Virus record (IMG/VR): IMGVR_UViG_3300033075_001536
Location: 64,001-128,000 of that record
DNA: 64,000 bases
Reading direction: 5' to 3' (one strand)
Source of the DNA: a virus
Lineage: Duplodnaviria > Caudoviricetes
The stretch's first letter is position 1. Each line of letters starts with the position of its first letter. Positions 1,604-59,322 of this stretch are shown piece by piece. A model generated the notes under the pieces. It saw only the letters and a list, made by a program, of their open reading frames with translations, was not told the origin of the DNA and made no database searches. The position numbers and the translations under genes were made by a program.

Positions 1604-2807
1604 CTCTTTCCATCCATCTTTGAGCTTGCTTTAATTGAGAAGTTTCTGACTTAACATATCTTTTGATCATAGTTAGTTTATCACGGCCATCCACCATTCC
1701 CATTACAAATGGGAATAAAGGATGTTTTCTATAATGTAGAGCAAAAGTTTTCCTATCACCATTGATTGGATACTCTGAATATTTTTTATAAAATTCATCT
1801 ATATCATGTGACATTTTATTCACATATCTGGAAACTAAATGTATAACTTGTTCTATTTCAGCAGATTTAGTTGGCTCATCTAACTGAGACATAATATCAT
1901 CAATTTCCTCATCTACAATTAATTTAATTAAAGTGTTTTCACGATTGATTTCAGTGGTAAACAAATGATGTCTATCAAAATACCATTTTGTCTTAACTTT
2001 GATCATCTTACCATTTTCAAATTGCACAATCCATCCTTCTTTTCCTTCTGTAATGTCTGCAGCAGTTACTAAATTATCTAGTACATGCTCTTTCTCAAAA
2101 TTACAAACAGACATAGAATCTAATTTATCCGAAAATTGATTGATATCTAAATACTTACCAGTTTTATTGTCTCTTATTCTAAGTAAAATAAGTTGTGTAT
2201 TTGCATAAGGAACCACAATTCTATTAGTTGGTGAAACATACTCAAAAATTGGAACAATGTCTCTATCAACACAGAATTTTATAAACTCTTGCACGGTCTT
2301 ATCCTCTCCATATATTCTCTGAATTTCAATTGCTTGATCGGATATAAAGGACATTTTAGACCTTCCAACAATCTTTCCATTTGGAAGTGGAATAAAGGAG
2401 GCAAGTGATCCATCTTCTTTATTCATAACATTTAAAACTTTATAATCCTTTACCACCGAATACATAGAATCCGGAGTTTGATTGAGATTAAAAAACTTAT
2501 CTAAAAGTAAATATCTTTTAAATAAAGATCCATCTTTATTAAACACAAAAGTCAGCCCCCTCATTTCAAATGCTTTTACATTTGGTTTTTCTGGAATTGG
2601 GTTAATAAATGAGTTAAAGGTAGCAAAACGATAGTTAAACATGGATATAGGATATCCATCTACTTCTGTTTTAACCTCATAAAAAACACCCTCATCATTG
2701 ACATTACACATCTCCACACACTCTTCATATGTTGGTAGATAGTATTCATGAGGAAATTCTTCCTTTGACTCTTTAATAAATTCCATATATTTAAATACTT
2801 TAATCAC
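1566..2807 (-). CDS. rnl1: T4 Rnl1-like RNA ligase with tag-like N-terminus
   Basis: FEMRGLTF, KFFNLN, motif I KEDGSL, FEYVSPTNRIVV, EGWIV, KVKTKWY are typical of Rnl1. Confidence 0.9.
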   Translation of the reverse strand: MIKVFKYMEFIKESKEEFPHEYYLPTYEECVEMCNVNDEGVFYEVKTEVDGYPISMFNYRFATFNSFINPIPEKPNVKAFEMRGLTFVFNKDGSLFKRYLLLDKFFNLNQTPDSMYSVVKDYKVLNVMNKEDGSLASFIPLPNGKIVGRSKMSFISDQAIEIQRIYGEDKTVQEFIKFCVDRDIVPIFEYVSPTNRIVVPYANTQLILLRIRDNKTGKYLDINQFSDKLDSMSVCNFEKEHVLDNLVTAADITEGKEGWIVQFENGKMIKVKTKWYFDRHHLFTTEINRENTLIKLIVDEEIDDIMSQLDEPTKSAEIEQVIHLVSRYVNKMSHDIDEFYKKYSEYPINGDRKTFALHYRKHPLFPFVMGMVDGRDKLTMIKRYVKSETSQLKQAQRWMERAKEMFGQTGNTL

Positions 2808-3225: not shown

Positions 3226-4658
3226 ATAATTTCATCTCTTATTTCCATCCAAAGCCAAACAAACCTTTCAAATCCCTCATCCATTTCCTCTCCTTCCATG
3301 CATCTTTCAATAGTTGTTTTTCTTCTATGATAGTCATCTACACTACCAGCAACAAATAGCACAAATTCTTTCATAATAATATCATAACAACCAATCCATA
3401 TATCTGAATCTTTTCCAACTTTATTTTTATACCAAATATCAAAAAATTGATTTCCTCGATGATTTATCCTAAAATCTGGATACTCCTTCATTAAAGATCT
3501 ACTAGTTTCAATATACTTAGAAAACTCACCTTTAATTTCTGACTCATCTACTATTTCCTCAATATAGCTATTAACATCATTTTCATCCTCACCCAACCTT
3601 TTGTATATTTTAATTGGATTTTTTATTTCTTTTTTGGATTCTTTAATCATAATATTATTTGAAAATAAGACAGAAATTGTCATAGAATCAAATTGCCAAT
3701 ATATGTGAACATTTTTTAGCTTAAATCCATCGTCTTCTAATCTCTCACAAGCAATCATAAATTCTTCATCAGATTTTAACTTTATTTCCGATTCTTCACA
3801 AACTTTTGGAAGCCTATCTAAATAGGAATAGTCCGTATTTTCCTCTCTTTTCTTATGTAGTTTCCAATTAAACATTTTAGAGAATTGTTCATGTGGAACT
3901 TCAAATTCAACTCTAAACTCACATTGACCATTAAGAATATCTAACCTTTTCTTTTTATCCTTTAGACTTTTATATCGATGTTTTTTAACATATTCCTTTC
4001 TAAGCTCAACAAGATCACCAGAAACCTCCATTTTTGAATTGTGTATATCATGTTTATCCAAAAAATCCGTAAATATATTTTTAACATCTTCAAGTGATGG
4101 AATAGATATTTTTGATTCCATGGTTGCTTGATATCCACCAAATTCTCCTCTTTCTTTATACCTTTTAGCTTGACTGTCCATTTTTGAGAATCTAAAAACT
4201 ATTTCGTTATAATTGAAATTATTAAAAATCTTAATATCTGGATATCTTAAATAGTATCCAAGATCTTCCACTCTTTCTGATATATCCAATATCAAGTCTG
4301 AAGCATCATCGATATATTTTTTATGAGCATATTTATTTATATCATCATTAGCTCTATGAAACCCATTGAAATCTACATCACCTTTAAAAACTTTAAATTT
4401 TATCACAACTAGAAAGTGTTTTCTTAACAATAGTTCATCAAATGCAAGTTCTTTTTTAGCATGGAATACATATTTATTTAAATGCTCAGCAGTAAAATTT
4501 TTAACCACCTCAAATCCTTCGTGTAAACTAAAATGATCTAAATAATCTGTAAAAATATTTAAAATATCTTCATCATCAATTGGATGATTATCATCTTGCC
4601 AATTTCCATCCACCCATTTTTCACCAATAAAATCTTTATATTTATTCAGAATTGCCAT
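3222..4658 (-). CDS. Tagged protein with two tandem copies of the paralogous domain plus a third module
   Basis: EDILNIFTDYLD..ERVEDLGY and EDVKNIFTDFLD..ERLEDDGF; linkers TMES and IKES. Confidence 0.8.
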   Translation of the reverse strand: MAILNKYKDFIGEKWVDGNWQDDNHPIDDEDILNIFTDYLDHFSLHEGFEVVKNFTAEHLNKYVFHAKKELAFDELLLRKHFLVVIKFKVFKGDVDFNGFHRANDDINKYAHKKYIDDASDLILDISERVEDLGYYLRYPDIKIFNNFNYNEIVFRFSKMDSQAKRYKERGEFGGYQATMESKISIPSLEDVKNIFTDFLDKHDIHNSKMEVSGDLVELRKEYVKKHRYKSLKDKKKRLDILNGQCEFRVEFEVPHEQFSKMFNWKLHKKREENTDYSYLDRLPKVCEESEIKLKSDEEFMIACERLEDDGFKLKNVHIYWQFDSMTISVLFSNNIMIKESKKEIKNPIKIYKRLGEDENDVNSYIEEIVDESEIKGEFSKYIETSRSLMKEYPDFRINHRGNQFFDIWYKNKVGKDSDIWIGCYDIIMKEFVLFVAGSVDDYHRRKTTIERCMEGEEMDEGFERFVWLWMEIRDEII

Positions 4659-55956: not shown

Positions 55957-56509
55957 AAAATTTGAAGAAATAAAACTAACACTAAAAGATGATCTAGGGA
56001 CATATTTCTACAACCTAGGTGATATGGATGGATTTAATTTGGAATACAGACCAGATGACTTCTATTTTTTTAAACTATCTCATATGGACGGATCCTTTGA
56101 ATATAACATGGATATTTTTGATGAGATACAAGAGTCATTGGATCGTGCGGCTGATGATGGATTAAAATTAGATAGAAGTTGGATAGAACCGAATATACCT
56201 GAATTTATGTCGAGTGTTGCTTGTGATAGAAAGACAGCAATAAAAAATAAATGGAATTCGATTTGGATACCAATGTCTAATAATGAATACCCTAGTCCAA
56301 ATGATTTAAGATTTTCTAAATTTCCTATTTATAGAAAAATTTATGTTGATAGCAAAAATAAAAAAATGGAATCCATGGTAAGGTCAAATAAAAAGATGGA
56401 TATGGATGTTGAATATCCGACCTCTCCATCTGATTTTATTTATACCAATAATTTAAAAAGTATTACTTTTTTATTTTTTGAGCAAGACTTAAAAAAATCT
56501 AAATATTAA
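55943..56509 (+). CDS. Tagged hypothetical protein, paralogous family
   Basis: MKYIKKFEE; DDLGTYFYNLGD...LDRAADDG. Confidence 0.72.
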   Translation: MKYIKKFEEIKLTLKDDLGTYFYNLGDMDGFNLEYRPDDFYFFKLSHMDGSFEYNMDIFDEIQESLDRAADDGLKLDRSWIEPNIPEFMSSVACDRKTAIKNKWNSIWIPMSNNEYPSPNDLRFSKFPIYRKIYVDSKNKKMESMVRSNKKMDMDVEYPTSPSDFIYTNNLKSITFLFFEQDLKKSKY

Positions 56510-57950
56510 TAGACTCAATTCTTTTAAACATCTCATTTCTGTCGGATTCTAACCATTTCATGATGTCTAAAACTTTATCAGAAAATCCCGCCAAACAAAA
56601 TACATTAGATTCTGGAAATTGTAAAGTCCCAAGTCCAGCCATATCCCAAGAATAAATAAATGGATTTGCACCAAATTTATTTTTATAATCGTTATATGCG
56701 GCTTTTGGTGTATAGTGTCCCATCCACCCTTGCATGTCGGATAGAATTATAACCCTATCATATTTTTTATTAGCCACTTTAAATATATTATGAAAATTCG
56801 TGCCGCCTCCGTTAAAACTAAATGAATTTTTAATAGTCATCACTGAATCCAATGGATTGTATGATTCATATTTAGCAGTGGTGTCGAAAGTCATCACATC
56901 ACAATTGTTTGCTTTTGCTAAAACAGCGGTGAATAGACCAGCAATTTCATGTGCTCTACCTCTCATAGACCCTGATGTATCTAAAGCAATTAAAGTTTCT
57001 CCTTCAAATTTTGGAACATTTGAAACAGATATATCCAGAGCCTTTGAAATAGCAACTTGAACATCACGAACTTCCTTAGAAGATCCTAATTTTCCAATTT
57101 CGTCATAAGCTGTTTTAAATCTAAATGGAAGAATACGAGATCCTTTAACCATTTGCTCATTTTGTAGTAGCTCACAAACTTGTGGAATAATTCCAGGAGC
57201 TTGATTGATTATATTTCTTAAATTCCTCAATAGAGCAAAATATCCAATTTTTTTGGATCCAATAAGTTCTCCCCAAGCATCCGCCTTTAATTTAGACAAA
57301 TCTTCTCCTGTTTCAGATGCTTTTTGACCAGCTTCTGATAACTTAGCTTCCCAAGTTTCGGTAGATTTTAGTCCACCTTTAATAAGAGATTCTAAAGCAA
57401 GTTTATTTCTATCAGTTGGCACTGGGTGAACTATGTTTACCAAGTCAACTAATTTAATTTCTTTATTTTCTCCGCGATATTTCGCAAGTTGATAAGCATC
57501 AAATTTATCAAATGCTTTTGCAAATCCTTTTTTCAAAGAATTTGGAAATTTTGGAGATTTCTTATCGGTTTTATTATTTAGATAATAAGATAATATTTCA
57601 AGCATATCATCTACACGAACAACTACTTTATCATAGAAATTCTTAGACCATTCTTTTCCTGAGGAATAAGATGCTAATTCACCCGCAAGAGCATGTGAAA
57701 TACTTCTCATACCAAATTCATCACGAGCAAAAATTGCAGCTTTTGCAGCAAACTCCGGATCTACTTTTGATAAATGATTTTTTAGATCTTTCAAGGAATC
57801 ATCCGCAGAACGATAGAATTCATTATTAACAAATGATGTTAGTAGCAAAGAAACCAAAGCTAGCTTATCTGATTCTTTATAGGCTTCTCCGCCAGCTTTA
57901 TTGATGGTTAGAGTTTTTGGTCTTGTTAGTGTTGTGTTAAATTTTGACAT
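56499..57950 (-). CDS. rsr: Ro60/Rsr TROVE-domain RNA-binding protein with C-terminal vWA domain
   Basis: NKAGGEAY, ARDEFGMRS, FDAYQLAKY, TWE..LS, ALLRNLRNI, ILPFRF, MIDAS DTSGSM, GGT, ILSDMQ, GFSD. Confidence 0.93.
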   Translation of the reverse strand: MSKFNTTLTRPKTLTINKAGGEAYKESDKLALVSLLLTSFVNNEFYRSADDSLKDLKNHLSKVDPEFAAKAAIFARDEFGMRSISHALAGELASYSSGKEWSKNFYDKVVVRVDDMLEILSYYLNNKTDKKSPKFPNSLKKGFAKAFDKFDAYQLAKYRGENKEIKLVDLVNIVHPVPTDRNKLALESLIKGGLKSTETWEAKLSEAGQKASETGEDLSKLKADAWGELIGSKKIGYFALLRNLRNIINQAPGIIPQVCELLQNEQMVKGSRILPFRFKTAYDEIGKLGSSKEVRDVQVAISKALDISVSNVPKFEGETLIALDTSGSMRGRAHEIAGLFTAVLAKANNCDVMTFDTTAKYESYNPLDSVMTIKNSFSFNGGGTNFHNIFKVANKKYDRVIILSDMQGWMGHYTPKAAYNDYKNKFGANPFIYSWDMAGLGTLQFPESNVFCLAGFSDKVLDIMKWLESDRNEMFKRIESINI

Positions 57951-57967
57951 ATATTTATATTTTATTT

Positions 57968-58135
57968 TTAATAGTTGTATGCTTTGTCTAATAGCTCTTT
58001 TAATTTCTCTTCTGTAAAGTATTCCTCTTCACTTTTTATTATCTCAATTAGTGCTTCTGCCATTCCGGCTCCAGACCATTCATCATAATCTACTCTATTG
58101 TCCACTAAATAATTTAAAGCTTCAATTTTTTTCAT
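57968..58135 (-). CDS. Small hypothetical protein, 55 aa, directly upstream of Ro60
   Basis: Manual translation MKKIEALNYLVDNRVDYDEWSGAGMAEALIEIIKSEEEYFTEEKLKELLDKAYNY. Confidence 0.6.
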   Translation of the reverse strand: MKKIEALNYLVDNRVDYDEWSGAGMAEALIEIIKSEEEYFTEEKLKELLDKAYNY

Positions 58136-58158: not shown

Positions 58159-58205
58159 AAAAAACCAGAATAAAAATTCATTTCTGAAAATTCACTCTGG
58201 TTTTT
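58159..58205 (-). terminator. Hairpin plus U-tract, probable terminator of the ncRNA transcript
   Basis: Minus strand aaaaaccagagtgaa...tttattctggtttttt; the stem needs G-U pairs that exist only on the minus strand. Confidence 0.6.
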
Positions 58206-58215
58206 ATTTATAAGG

Positions 58216-58471
58216 TGCAAACAAGAAAATCTAGACTAAGATTGTCGCAAAGATTTATTTTCTGAAACTTTACCGGCTGTGTGAGGCTTCAGTCATGCCT
58301 GTTATATTTTTTACAAGATATTTACAAATAACTTGAACTCTTAAAGGTTGTTATCCTAATTTTTTCACCAAATTGTCTGTTTCAATCTTTTTGGTAGTTG
58401 TAGCTATCAGCTCTAAACACTTTCCGTTTTAATAGTAGTCGAAGTAACTCAGAACTATTACTATGTTTGCA
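58216..58471 (-). ncRNA. Candidate Y-like RNA 1 (about 256 nt)
   Basis: Ends pair (UGCAAACA/UGUUUGCA); shares AGUAAU..GAGUUACUUCGA with unit 2; no ORF; upstream of Ro60. Confidence 0.55.
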
Positions 58472-58483
58472 TTTTTTAAAAAA

Positions 58484-58551
58484 ACAAGAGAAAGTTTTCA
58501 AAGAGTGTTTTTTGATTCCATATCGAAGTAACTCTTTAAATTACTACTTGT
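58484..58551 (-). ncRNA. Candidate Y-like RNA 2 (about 68 nt)
   Basis: ACAAG/CUUGU outer stem, AAAGAGU/ACUCUUU inner stem, GAGUUACUUCGA motif. Confidence 0.55.
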
Positions 58552-58559
58552 GTCTTCTT

Positions 58560-58619
58560 ATATTTGAACAAGAAAAAAAGTTTTAAATTTATTAAAAAAT
58601 CTTTTCTGTGTTCAAATAT
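58560..58619. repeat. 11-bp inverted repeat atatttgaaca/tgttcaaatat
   Basis: Seen directly; arms overlap TAnnTTTG-like sequence. Confidence 0.6.
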
Positions 58620-58668
58620 TTGTAGTAGTATATAGTGTACCTAAAATTTGAATTTTTATGAAGGTGGA

Positions 58669-59322
58669 TTATTTATGATTAAATAGAGCTAATGTAAAAT
58701 CCTCACTAGAATAATCATTGATTAGACTTAATTCACTTTTTAGTCCGTGTGATAGATATTTCTTTAGCAAATTTTGGTTGTAGTAGGTATATCTTAATGT
58801 TTTGTGGTTTTTGGTTTGTCTAACATTACTCGATATTCTATCTTTATCATTTTCGATAAAATTGGCCATAATTCCTTTATTACATATTGTTTGTCCATAT
58901 TTAAAGAACTCTAAAACATCTCTTTCATTCATCCCAACTGTAAATACCCCAGACGCAACGATCCAATCATGATTCTCTTTTATATCATGTATGCTATCCA
59001 CTACTTTAAATTTTCTATCTGGATATTTCTTTTTTGCATTTTTAATCATACTTTTTTGAATATCCACTCCTAGATAATCTACCTTTTTCTGCATTGCGTC
59101 TGCCCATCTAGATAGATCACCTAATCCACAACCGTAGTCTAGTAAACTATCACCACTTTTTATGTATTTCAAAAACACATTAAATCTATCTCTTTGTGAT
59201 CCAGAACTAACCCACCCCACCGCATCTGGGTCATAAATATCCTTCGTACATCTGTGTTGGTAGAAATCTTCTATAAATTTCCTTGGATTTTTAAGTTCTT
59301 CGAATAATTTTAAATATTGCAT
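58669..59322 (-). CDS. Class I SAM-dependent methyltransferase with tag
   Basis: MQYLKLFEE; VGW.S..SQ..RF, LLDYGCGLG, YLGVDI, DWIVASGVF. Confidence 0.88.
   Translation of the reverse strand: MQYLKLFEELKNPRKFIEDFYQHRCTKDIYDPDAVGWVSSGSQRDRFNVFLKYIKSGDSLLDYGCGLGDLSRWADAMQKKVDYLGVDIQKSMIKNAKKKYPDRKFKVVDSIHDIKENHDWIVASGVFTVGMNERDVLEFFKYGQTICNKGIMANFIENDKDRISSNVRQTKNHKTLRYTYYNQNLLKKYLSHGLKSELSLINDYSSEDFTLALFNHK

What the first reader, a model, noticed from the sequence alone, without database searches (positions are those of the whole stretch)
58159..58619. Phage Ro60 gene preceded by two structured non-coding units sharing a 12-nt motif: candidate new class of Y-like RNAs
Seen: the longest ORF-free gap in the window (about 530 nt) lies upstream of the TROVE/vWA gene. 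It holds two units with an exact repeat TCGAAGTAACTC (58439-58450, 58523-58534). On the minus strand both read ACA..AGUAAU..GAGUUACUUCGA...UUUC(U)..UUGU. In both, the 5' and 3' ends pair, with an internal loop and then a second helix with a single bulged pyrimidine (GAGUU/AAcACUC in unit 2). Unit 2 is a minimal 68-nt version, and unit 1 carries about 200 nt of extra sequence in the loop. A G-U-containing terminator follows on the same strand as the Ro60 gene. Known: bacterial Ro60 orthologues bind Y RNAs encoded beside them through a bulged terminal helix, with a variable effector domain. Inference: these are Ro60 ligands unlike tRNA-like YrlA, with a constant docking stem and swappable cargo, forming a phage RNP for RNA repair or decay.
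Basis: partly seen in the sequence, partly recalled or inferred. Interest (0 to 1): 0.88.

Follow-up and report, generated by a model that had tools for sequence, protein, structure and literature searches.

The report
Two Y-type RNAs beside phage Ro60
Upstream of the Ro60 gene of a giant uncultured phage lie two real, structured non-coding RNA genes (68 nt and 254 nt) that share a conserved docking core. That core recurs beside Ro60 genes in over a hundred Bacteroidota-phage and Bacteroidota loci, so they are almost certainly Y-RNA-type partners of Ro60, and one carries an unusually large cargo domain of unknown kind.

Summary
The 12-nt repeat is exact at the stated coordinates and occurs only twice in the 170-kb phage record. 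It lies in the longest ORF-free gap of the window.

On the Ro60 strand the gap reads: promoter-like box, AT-rich hairpin, short unit (58551-58484, 68 nt), long unit (58470-58217, 254 nt), strong terminator, a 55-aa ORF, then Ro60.

Single-sequence folds are not significant. Comparison settles it. Both units occur in tandem in all 35 related huge-phage contigs, 33 of them with Ro60 directly downstream. Both share one core: P1, bulged U, RG/CY, loop YRA/RNUUUU, a 9-bp P2, then UACUUCG. The core covaries strongly.

A covariance model of the short unit finds over 100 further copies next to Ro60, always on the Ro60 strand. These lie in crAss-like phages, other phages and Saprospiraceae/Chitinophagales MAGs, and also in phage tRNA arrays.

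Mid-length members carry tRNA-like T/D arms and score below threshold as Rfam YrlA. The window's two units do not.

Verdict: a divergent Bacteroidota/phage branch of the YrlA-type Y RNAs with swappable cargo. The 220-320-nt form carries a multi-helix domain that matches no Rfam family. Ro60 binding is inferred, not shown.

The parts
58628..58676 (-). Conserved upstream box (AAUAAUCCACC...N20...UAUAUA), promoter-like, possibly with an inverted repeat
   Evidence: The same box (..AAAAAATCCACC..ATATATA..) precedes the units in nearly all relatives although the upstream gene differs. It also precedes a stand-alone unit in L177. Its function is inferred. It is not a repeated motif of the window.
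58560..58619 (-). AT-rich hairpin between the box and the short unit
   Evidence: MFE -20.6 kcal/mol, z -7.4 on the minus strand. The hairpin itself is variable in relatives, but a TTAAAACTTTTT word recurs there. Role unknown.
58484..58551 (-). Short Y-type RNA (68 nt). P1 58551-58547/58488-58484; bulged U 58546; AG/CU 58545-58544/58490-58489; loop UAA / AACUUU; P2 58540-58532/58505-58497; UUACUUCGA 58531-58523; small hairpin; A-rich loop.
   Evidence: Alignment A1 of 29 distinct homologues: 95.4% of cells paired, 10 of 16 pairs with changes on both sides, 0 of 500 shuffles as high, slid controls 30-49% paired. RNAalifold finds the same structure. Model R1 scores it 77 bits, E 1.4e-16, as the only hit in the own record.
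58217..58470 (-). Long Y-type RNA (254 nt). P1 58470-58464/58223-58217; bulged U 58463; AG/CU 58462-58461/58225-58224; P2 58457-58448/58240-58232; UUACUUCGA 58447-58439; about 190-nt multi-helix cargo domain 58438-58241.
   Evidence: Alignment A2 of 27 distinct homologues. Core 97.5% paired. P1 is 100% paired with 6 of 9 pairs changed on both sides. P2 is 95% paired but mostly invariant. Internal helices covary. No Rfam family matches.
58439..58450 (-). 12-nt repeat copy 1 (GAGUUACUUCGA): end of P2 plus the junction motif of the long unit
   Evidence: UACUUCG is nearly invariant in 67 diverse family members.
58523..58534 (-). 12-nt repeat copy 2: end of P2 plus the junction motif of the short unit
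58160..58205 (-). Intrinsic terminator after the long unit
   Evidence: Hairpin of -21.3 kcal/mol, z -6.6, followed by a U run. An equivalent GACCAGA..UCUGGUCUUUUUU hairpin follows the units in all relatives.
57968..58135 (-). 55-aa ORF between the terminator and Ro60 (context only; absent from most relatives)
   Evidence: No Pfam family. In relatives the Ro60 ATG follows the terminator by about 30-40 nt.
56499..57950 (-). Ro60 (TROVE + vWA) gene, 483 aa
   Evidence: Pfam TROVE 2.4e-22 and vWA_Ro60. PDB 9KOP/9L5Y phiLo Ro60, E 1.5e-26.

Best explanation
The gap holds an independent transcription unit on the Ro60 strand that makes two non-coding RNAs of the Y-RNA type. Each RNA closes its 5' and 3' ends into the same docking module. 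The module is a terminal helix P1 whose last G-C pair is followed by a bulged U and two more pairs, then an asymmetric internal loop (YRA opposite RNUUUU), then a 9-bp helix P2, then the nearly invariant junction UACUUCG.

By analogy with vertebrate Y RNAs, bacterial YrlA and the phiLo Yrl RNAs, this module binds the phage's ring-shaped Ro60. What is inserted after the junction is the effector module. In the short RNA it is only a tiny hairpin and an A-rich loop, so this RNA probably acts as a gate or regulator of the Ro60 cavity, like YrlB. In the long RNA it is a folded domain of about 190 nt that probably tethers Ro60 to a partner not yet identified.

A strong terminator sits between the RNAs and Ro60. 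Ro60 mRNA may therefore arise by read-through, which would keep the RNAs in excess.

Shown here: the RNAs' structure, strand, conservation, linkage with Ro60 and kinship with YrlA-like RNAs. Inferred: transcription in vivo, Ro60 binding, the gate and tether roles, and read-through.
For: 1. Synteny. Both units stand in tandem in all 35 huge-phage contigs found by a DNA pattern alone. 33 of these have Ro60 starting 300-430 nt downstream on the same strand.

2. Covariation. Short unit: 95.4% paired, 10 of 16 pairs with compensatory changes, controls 30-49%. Long-unit P1: 100% paired, 6 of 9 pairs compensatory. Across 67 diverse members outside the training clade: 95.4% paired, 15 of 16 pairs compensatory, covariation score 0.764 against at most 0.15 for slid controls (this alignment is model-fitted).

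3. Strand. G-U pairs are frequent. All 84, 24 and 67 model hits in Ro60 loci are on the Ro60 strand.

4. Breadth. The core sits beside Ro60 genes of 72% down to 32% identity, including Crassvirales phage cr111_1 (41 bits), csAssE-Sib, and Saprospiraceae and Chitinophagales contigs of up to 603 kb.

5. Kinship with known Ro60 ligands. Members of 107-169 nt carry T and D arms (30 of 34) and hit Rfam YrlA at 28-47 bits. The YrlA stems align to this core.

6. Precedent. YrlA RNAs lie within 4 kb of Ro60 on the same strand (PMC4201824). Two Y-like RNAs upstream of the phiLo Ro60 bind it in vitro (PMC12135203), and that Ro60 is the closest solved relative of this one.

7. Independent genes. The units have their own conserved upstream box and terminator. 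A stand-alone copy with the same box and terminator sits in a 32.8-kb genome without TROVE.

8. Weak hint of expression. RNA libraries of two studies hold 121-151-nt pieces at about 92-97% identity spanning 58214-58607. The flanking ORFs are matched there only by pieces under 90%.
Against: - No binding data exist.
- The published Ro60-recognition motifs (GGUCCGA in vertebrates, GNCGAAN0-1G in YrlA) are not present as such. Only UUCGA and GUAGYGA resemble them.
- The window's units do not hit Rfam YrlA or Y_RNA even at E 10.
- The long RNA (254 nt; 220-320 nt in relatives) lies outside the 80-130 nt of characterised Y RNAs.
- Single-sequence folding energies are ordinary.
- Many family members lie in phage tRNA arrays several kb or more from Ro60. 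One contig (L025, a fragment estimated 18% complete) has the units but no Ro60 in 103 kb. One terminally repeated 32.8-kb genome has a unit and no TROVE.
- The RNA-library pieces are contigs. They cannot prove transcription, ends or strand.
Confidence: 0.78

Rival explanations
1. The conserved core is the handle for a factor other than Ro60, for example a tRNA-processing, tRNA-modifying or RNA-repair enzyme or a phage RNA ligase. On this reading the RNAs belong to the phage tRNA and tRNA-mimic repertoire. Ro60 would be linked only because it works in the same pathway, not because it binds this core.
For: An unbiased scan for the core pattern finds many copies inside phage tRNA arrays of 10-24 tRNAs, on the tRNA strand. 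Some units embed sequences that score as real tRNAs: csAssE-Sib Tyr at 43 bits and Lys at 53 bits, and L172, L167 and L195. A 32.8-kb terminally repeated genome has a unit without TROVE. The own record encodes a T4-type RNA ligase 1.
Against: The tightest and most frequent neighbour is Ro60: over 100 hits within about 1.5 kb and on the same strand. The two near-complete genomes whose units sit in tRNA arrays still encode TROVE elsewhere. The architecture of terminal stem, asymmetric loop and second stem maps onto the Ro60-binding module of YrlA. The window's units have no tRNA-like part for a tRNA enzyme to recognise.
Confidence: 0.12
2. The units are cis-acting leader elements of the Ro60 mRNA, for example autoregulatory Ro60-binding sites that control termination at the downstream hairpin, rather than stable trans-acting RNAs.
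For: They lie directly upstream of Ro60 on the same strand, with a terminator in between and only about 30-40 nt from terminator to ATG in relatives. No separate Ro60 promoter was recognised.
Against: Unit number varies from 1 to 6 or more. Some units lie downstream of Ro60 (L116, L118, L127, L101), in tRNA arrays, or in genomes without TROVE with their own box and terminator. In the window an extra ORF separates them from Ro60. The terminator lies outside the P1-closed structures, and no alternative anti-terminator pairing was seen. The homologous YrlA RNAs are stable trans-acting RNAs (PMC4201824).
Confidence: 0.07
3. The repeat is a DNA-level signal (an operator or recombination site) or a chance duplication in AT-rich spacer DNA.
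For: It is an exact 12-nt direct repeat 84 nt apart in an intergenic region. Single-sequence folds are not better than shuffles.
Against: Compensatory base changes keep the helices across 29, 27 and 67 sequences. G-U pairs work on one strand only. All hits are on one strand relative to Ro60. The repeat is the most conserved part of a much longer conserved RNA.
Confidence: 0.02

Closest known systems
YrlA (Rfam RF02553), the bacterial and phage Y RNA with a tRNA-like effector module (Chen et al. 2014, PMC4201824; Wang et al. 2018, bioRxiv 10.1101/312249)
   Same: It is encoded next to Ro60 on the same strand. The 5' and 3' ends form an outer stem, an asymmetric internal loop and a second stem, followed by a conserved UA-containing junction and then the effector module. 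Mid-length members of the present family have T and D arms in the YrlA order and hit RF02553 at 28-47 bits, with the stems in register.
   Different: The window's two RNAs have no T or D arm and give no RF02553 hit at E 10. The GNCGAAN0-1G motif is replaced by G-U(bulge)-RG-YRA in the outer stem. UACUUCG is invariant at the junction. The cargo is either minimal or a non-tRNA domain of about 190 nt. Even the tRNA-like members stay below the family's gathering score of 69 bits.
YrlB of Salmonella enterica (a second, smaller Y RNA in the rsr-yrlB-yrlA operon)
   Same: A small Y RNA encoded in tandem with a larger one beside Ro60, sharing the Ro60-binding region with its larger neighbour (PMC4201824).
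   Different: YrlB is known only from S. enterica and lies 3' of rsr. The resemblance is one of arrangement only.
Yrl1 and Yrl2 of Thermus phage phiLo (PMC12135203; PDB 9KOP, 9L5Y)
   Same: Two Y-like RNAs upstream of a phage Ro60 gene, shown to bind that Ro60. The phiLo Ro60 is the closest solved relative of the window's protein (E 1.5e-26).
   Different: Model R1 finds nothing significant in the phiLo locus (best 8.9 bits). The phiLo RNAs were defined by a CGAA motif in a large internal bulge, not by this core.
Yrn1 of Deinococcus radiodurans and metazoan Y RNAs (Rfam RF00019)
   Same: Modular design: a terminal bulged helix for Ro60 plus a loop or stem-loop module that tethers an effector (PNPase in D. 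radiodurans).
   Different: No sequence or model similarity was found. Their size is 80-130 nt, and the bulge is a C within GGUCCGA rather than a U.

Membership tests
Y RNA in the broad sense (Ro60-bound ncRNA) | Encoded close to the Ro60 gene, on the same strand (bacterial and phage Y RNAs) | tested here: met
   In the window the units end 267 nt upstream of the Ro60 ATG (3' end of the long unit at 58217, ATG at 57950). 33 of 35 contigs have Ro60 directly downstream. All R1 hits in Ro60 loci are on the Ro60 strand.
Y RNA in the broad sense (Ro60-bound ncRNA) | 5' and 3' ends pair into a long stem with a bulged helix that holds the Ro60 site | tested here: met
   P1, bulged U, a 2-bp extension, an internal loop and P2, supported by covariation.
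Y RNA in the broad sense (Ro60-bound ncRNA) | Conserved Ro60-recognition sequence (GGUCCGA in vertebrates; GNCGAAN0-1G in bacteria) | tested here: inconclusive
   Neither motif is present as such. The conserved counterparts are G-U-R-G-Y-R-A in the outer stem and UACUUCG(A) at the junction.
Y RNA in the broad sense (Ro60-bound ncRNA) | Physically bound by Ro60 | not testable with these tools
   Needs EMSA, pull-down or RIP.
Y RNA in the broad sense (Ro60-bound ncRNA) | Size of about 80-130 nt (characterised members) | tested here: not met
   The short unit is 68 nt. The long unit is 254 nt, and 220-320 nt in relatives.
YrlA (RF02553) | tRNA-like effector module with conserved T and D arms | tested here: not met
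   No T- or D-arm sequence occurs in either unit of the window. There is no RF02553 hit at E 10 in the gap or in the whole 170-kb record. Related loci do have such members.
YrlA (RF02553) | Score at or above the Rfam gathering threshold (69 bits) | tested here: not met
   The best related members reach 47 bits. The window's units give no hit.
Metazoan Y_RNA (RF00019) | Match to the covariance model | tested here: not met
   No hit at E 10.
Cis-regulatory leader or attenuator of Ro60 | Fixed position in the 5' UTR with mutually exclusive terminator and anti-terminator pairings | tested here: not met
   Copy number and position vary, and stand-alone copies exist. No alternative pairing with the terminator was seen.

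The most novel reading that the evidence does not exclude
The 220-320-nt long unit may be a new kind of Y RNA. Its effector module would be a large, independently folded RNA domain of at least four covarying helices, matching no Rfam family. That domain would recruit an effector other than PNPase or tRNA enzymes, or mimic a host RNA.

More broadly, Bacteroidota and their phages (crAss-like and huge phages) may use one Ro60-docking scaffold as a general carrier for interchangeable RNA cargos, including genuine tRNAs embedded in the scaffold. This would tie Ro60 RNPs to tRNA supply or repair during infection.
Probability: 0.3. Interest if true: 0.82.

Novelty: new variant of a known kind. Interest (0 to 1): 0.68.

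Why it matters
Y RNAs are the obligate partners of Ro60, an RNA quality-control protein and human autoantigen. In bacteria they are known essentially as the tRNA-like YrlA type, plus a few species-specific RNAs.

This locus opens a large, unannotated branch of the family in Bacteroidota and their phages, including gut crAss-like phages and 0.5-Mb phages. None of it is in Rfam and none of it reaches the YrlA threshold. Three points follow.

- **A sequence-defined docking core that can be tested directly.** It comprises the bulged U, the asymmetric loop and UACUUCG.
- **A natural series of cargos on one scaffold.** The series runs from none, through a tRNA mimic and a real tRNA, to a roughly 200-nt domain. 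That is the material needed to ask what the effector module of a Y RNA does.
- **The largest Y-type RNAs seen so far.**

It also gives annotators a way to stop calling these regions empty spacers or, in csAssE-Sib, plain tRNA genes.

Tried and rejected
- **Rfam.** No family matched either unit: the gap at E 10, eight homologous loci, and the long unit alone in two versions. RF02553 gave nothing over the whole own record.
- **Single-sequence folding.** It does not discriminate: z -1.2 and -0.9 for the units on the minus strand, and the plus strand of unit 2 even folds slightly better.
- **UUCGA as a T-loop or C(UUCG)G tetraloop.** Rejected. The flanking bases do not form a T stem, and the base after UUCG varies.
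- **GGUGAAAAAGUCCGG in the cargo as an RNase P CR-I-like element.** Rejected. There is no P4 partner and no RNase P hit.
- **A local hairpin AUAGUU/AACUAU as an alternative to P2.** It is present in many members of the clade but not all, so it was not pursued.
- **R1 on other phage Ro60 loci.** Nothing significant in the Vibrio phage locus or in the phiLo locus.
- **The AAUAAUCCAC box as a repeated phage promoter word.** It occurs in the window at chance level.
- **RtcB and RNase PH/PNPase domains.** None in the 170-kb record, which is estimated 78% complete, so this is uninformative.
- **L025.** No Ro60 in the 103 kb held, but the contig is only about 18% complete, so nothing follows.
- **RNA libraries.** Parts of the window without cover in the two RNA runs are not evidence of silence. 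The runs are contigs only, and X1 is probably the source sample.
- **Full structure of the long-unit cargo.** Not resolved.
- **Metagenome-contig scan.** Not used, because the viral and genome collections already gave enough sequences.
Full report
**1. The locus**

The window is bases 64001-128000 of a 170,678-bp IMG/VR virus record. Its nearest named relative is LR745206.1, a 634,780-bp uncultured phage, whose Ro60 is 70% identical.

On the minus strand the order of features is as follows.
- A class-I methyltransferase gene, 59322->58669.
- A 533-nt gap, 58668->58136.
- A 55-aa ORF with no known family, 58135->57968.
- A 483-aa TROVE+vWA protein, 57950->56499.

The gap is the longest stretch of the window without an ORF of at least 50 aa. 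The closest solved structure to the TROVE protein is the Ro60 of Thermus phage phiLo (9KOP/9L5Y, E 1.5e-26).

**2. The observation**

TCGAAGTAACTC is exact at 58439-58450 and 58523-58534. Its complement occurs nowhere else in the 170-kb record.

Read on the minus strand, the gap contains these elements.
- A conserved box, 58676-58628.
- An AT-rich hairpin, 58619-58560 (z -7.4).
- The short unit, 58551-58484.
- The long unit, 58470-58217.
- A terminator, 58205-58160 (z -6.6, two G-U pairs, U run).

The two units folded alone are no better than shuffled sequence (z -1.2 and -0.9). The sequence of this window alone therefore could not have settled the matter.

**3. Relatives settle it**

LR745206.1 has the same two units upstream of its Ro60, with visible compensatory changes. 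A protein-based search gave 14 IMG/VR loci.

A scan with the 5' end of the long unit as a DNA pattern gave 35 contigs of up to 483 kb.
- In 33 of them Ro60 begins 300-430 nt downstream on the same strand.
- One locus is cut too short to tell.
- One (L025, a contig estimated 18% complete) has the units but no Ro60 in 103 kb.

All 35 contigs carry the short unit immediately 5' of the long one, and all have an equivalent terminator.

**4. Structure of the short unit**

The evidence is alignment A1, with 29 distinct sequences. From the outside in, the short unit consists of:
- P1 (4-5 bp);
- a bulged U;
- two more pairs (AG/CU);
- an internal loop, YGA opposite A-N-U-U-U-N;
- a 9-bp P2;
- U-UACUUCG;
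- an optional small hairpin;
- an A-rich stretch ending in ACAC.

On this alignment 95.4% of cells are paired and 10 of 16 pairs show changes on both sides. None of 500 shuffles reaches the observed values. Sliding the 3' partners drops pairing to 30-49%. RNAalifold finds the same fold on its own. Frequent G-U pairs fix the strand as that of Ro60.

**5. Structure of the long unit**

The evidence is alignment A2, with 27 distinct sequences of 218-324 nt. The core is the same as in the short unit.
- P1 is GCAAACA/UGUUUGC. It is 100% paired, with 6 of 9 pairs (including the 2-bp extension) changed on both sides.
- A bulged U follows, then AG/CU.
- The loop is CGA opposite AAUUUU.
- P2 is UAG-UU-UGAG/CUYAGGCUA. 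It is 95% paired but mostly invariant.
- The junction is WUACUUCG.

Between the junction and the 3' strand of P2 lies a domain of 170-270 nt with conserved blocks and several covarying hairpins.
- AGUG..CUAC closes a GC-N4-GC mini-hairpin.
- ACC..GGU (alternatively ACU..AGU) closes a variable hairpin.
- GAGUGA..UCACU forms a further hairpin.
- GCAAAG..CUUUGU carries a GNRA-like tip.

I could not resolve the complete fold. No Rfam family matches it, even when the long unit is searched alone.

**6. How far the family reaches**

Model R1, built from A1, finds only the short unit in the own record (77 bits). Elsewhere it finds the following.
- *Crassvirales phage cr111_1.* A 41-bit hit lies about 670 nt upstream of its Ro60.
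- *Viral loci found with a Ro60 profile.* In 48 loci, with Ro60 identity 72% down to 32%, there are 84 hits.
- *Genome contigs.* In 29 contigs, mostly Saprospiraceae, Chitinophagales and other Bacteroidota MAGs and including contigs of 303-603 kb, there are 24 hits.

Every hit is on the Ro60 strand. Most are within 1.5 kb upstream and a few lie just downstream. Loci hold from 1 to at least 6 units.

Sixty-seven hits from outside the training clade (A4) are 95.4% paired. Compensatory changes occur in 15 of 16 pairs, and the covariation score is 0.764 against at most 0.15 for slid controls. This alignment is model-fitted, which favours the structure.

The family consensus is: G(P1 end), U(bulge), R-G, Y-R-A, P2, U-UACUUCG ... 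A-C, P2', R-N-U-U-U-U, C-Y, P1'.

**7. Relation to YrlA**

In csAssE-Sib three units with this core precede Ro60.
- One carries a T arm followed by a D arm and hits Rfam YrlA at 28.5 bits.
- The other two enclose sequences that score as tRNA-Tyr and tRNA-Lys.

In Bacteroidota MAG loci and more distant phage loci, units of 107-169 nt hit YrlA at 33-47 bits, against a gathering score of 69. Thirty of 34 such units have a T-arm motif.

For one locus the YrlA alignment and the R1 alignment cover the same RNA. The correspondences are:

| YrlA model | This core |
|---|---|
| second stem | P2 |
| conserved CUA/YUAY junction | UAC of UACUUCG |
| outer stem, which carries GNCGAA | P1 and the G-U-R-G-Y-R-A region |

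The family is therefore a divergent branch of the YrlA lineage. The window's two RNAs are members in which the tRNA-like module is absent (short) or replaced (long).

Published work frames this. YrlA RNAs lie within 4 kb of Ro60 on the same strand in more than 250 bacteria and 22 phages (PMC4201824). Y RNAs are modular, with a Ro60-binding stem and an effector module (bioRxiv 10.1101/312249). Phage phiLo encodes two Y-like RNAs upstream of its Ro60 that bind it (PMC12135203). Jumbo-phage TROVE proteins have been noted before (PMC7824862). I found no description of this core or of Y RNAs in Bacteroidota phages.

**8. A twist: tRNA arrays**

I scanned IMG/VR with a generic core pattern that makes no reference to Ro60.
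- Besides the known loci, it returned copies inside phage tRNA arrays of 10-24 tRNAs, on the tRNA strand. Some have a tRNA embedded in the unit.
- Where the genome is nearly complete (211 kb and 307 kb), a TROVE gene is present elsewhere.
- Most of the other contigs are small fragments, which tell nothing.
- One terminally repeated 32.8-kb genome has a stand-alone short unit (66.9 bits) with the same upstream box and terminator but no TROVE.

This shows that the units are self-contained genes acting in trans. It also keeps open a rival reading in which the core serves a factor of tRNA metabolism.

**9. Expression**

Two freshwater metatranscriptome studies hold pieces of 121-151 nt at about 92-97% identity. 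These cover 58214-58364, 58249-58369, 58393-58538 and 58456-58607. In the same runs the flanking ORFs are matched only by pieces under 90% identity. One piece ends at 58214, three bases beyond the 3' end of the long unit's P1.

These are assembled contigs from a close relative. They are a weak hint, not proof of transcripts or of ends.

**10. Mechanism proposed**

One promoter-like box drives a transcript through the hairpin, the short RNA and the long RNA to the terminator. The closed P1 helices would define the mature RNAs.

Both RNAs would dock on Ro60 through the common core. The short RNA, with only an A-rich loop, would gate or regulate the ring. The long RNA would bring a partner through its large domain.

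Both are consistent with an RNA damage and repair setting, but that is context only. No RtcB or PNPase-type domain is present in the 170 kb held, so a host partner is likely.

Read-through of the terminator may supply Ro60 mRNA, since in relatives only 30-40 nt separate the terminator from the ATG. All functional steps in this section are inference.

**11. Verdict**

It overstates the distance from YrlA.

This is a new variant of a known kind. It has one truly unexplained part, the roughly 190-nt cargo domain, and a reach across Bacteroidota phages that has apparently gone unnoticed.

Noticed in passing
L053 (csAssE-Sib, OR575929.1) about 2490-2925: Three Y-type units precede Ro60. Two of them enclose what the record annotates as tRNA-Tyr and tRNA-Lys (43 and 53 bits). 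The core's P1 and P2 form a leader-trailer stem around the tRNA. These may be tRNAs carried on a Ro60 scaffold, or tRNA mimics mis-annotated as tRNA genes.
   Followed up: partly
L177 7560-7740 (IMGVR_UViG_3300045911_000135, 32.8 kb, direct terminal repeats): A stand-alone short unit (R1 66.9 bits) with the same AAATCCAC box upstream and the same GAUCAGA..UCUGGUCUUUUUU terminator, in a genome with no TROVE gene. A small phage may supply a Y RNA for the Ro60 of its host or of a co-infecting phage.
   Followed up: partly
L104 2501-4633 (also L015-L018, L047, L051, L105, L108, L111): In one sub-clade the Ro60 gene is split into ORFs of 156 aa and 324 aa by an inserted 224-aa ORF with NUMOD3 and HNH endonuclease motifs. 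This looks like a homing-endonuclease insertion. No group I intron was found by Rfam.
   Followed up: partly
L172, L176, L186, L187, L191 and others: Core-bearing units sit inside very large phage tRNA arrays (10-24 tRNAs), on the tRNA strand. L187 has six or more units in a row at 3561-4110.
   Followed up: partly
window 58628-58676 and the equivalent place in relatives: The conserved box contains an inverted repeat whose arms covary between phages (CCACCT..AGGTGG, ACCTTC..GAAGGT, ACCTTG..CAAGGT), about 20 nt apart and followed by ATATATA. It may be a promoter with an operator, or the terminator of the upstream gene.
   Followed up: no
window 57968-58135 (minus strand): A 55-aa ORF with no Pfam family is wedged between the RNA terminator and Ro60. 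Most relatives lack it.
   Followed up: no
window about 1980-2567 (minus strand; G000:C1:65980-66567): A T4-type RNA ligase 1 domain (PF09511, 71.8 bits) lies in a 416-aa open frame. This gives RNA-repair context in the same phage.
   Followed up: no
L094 about 2150-2440 and L054 2330-2700: Other Ro60 loci carry long units or long structured spacers whose cargo is unrelated in sequence to the window's long unit. Large cargos seem to have arisen more than once.
   Followed up: no
L135-L161 (genome contigs): The closest cellular Ro60 relatives (45-58% identity) are almost all in Saprospiraceae, Chitinophagales and Lewinellaceae MAGs. This points to that part of Bacteroidota as the host range and the likely source of the phage gene. 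A few MAGs labelled Patescibacteria or Saccharibacteria with near-identical loci look like binning errors or phage contigs.
   Followed up: no
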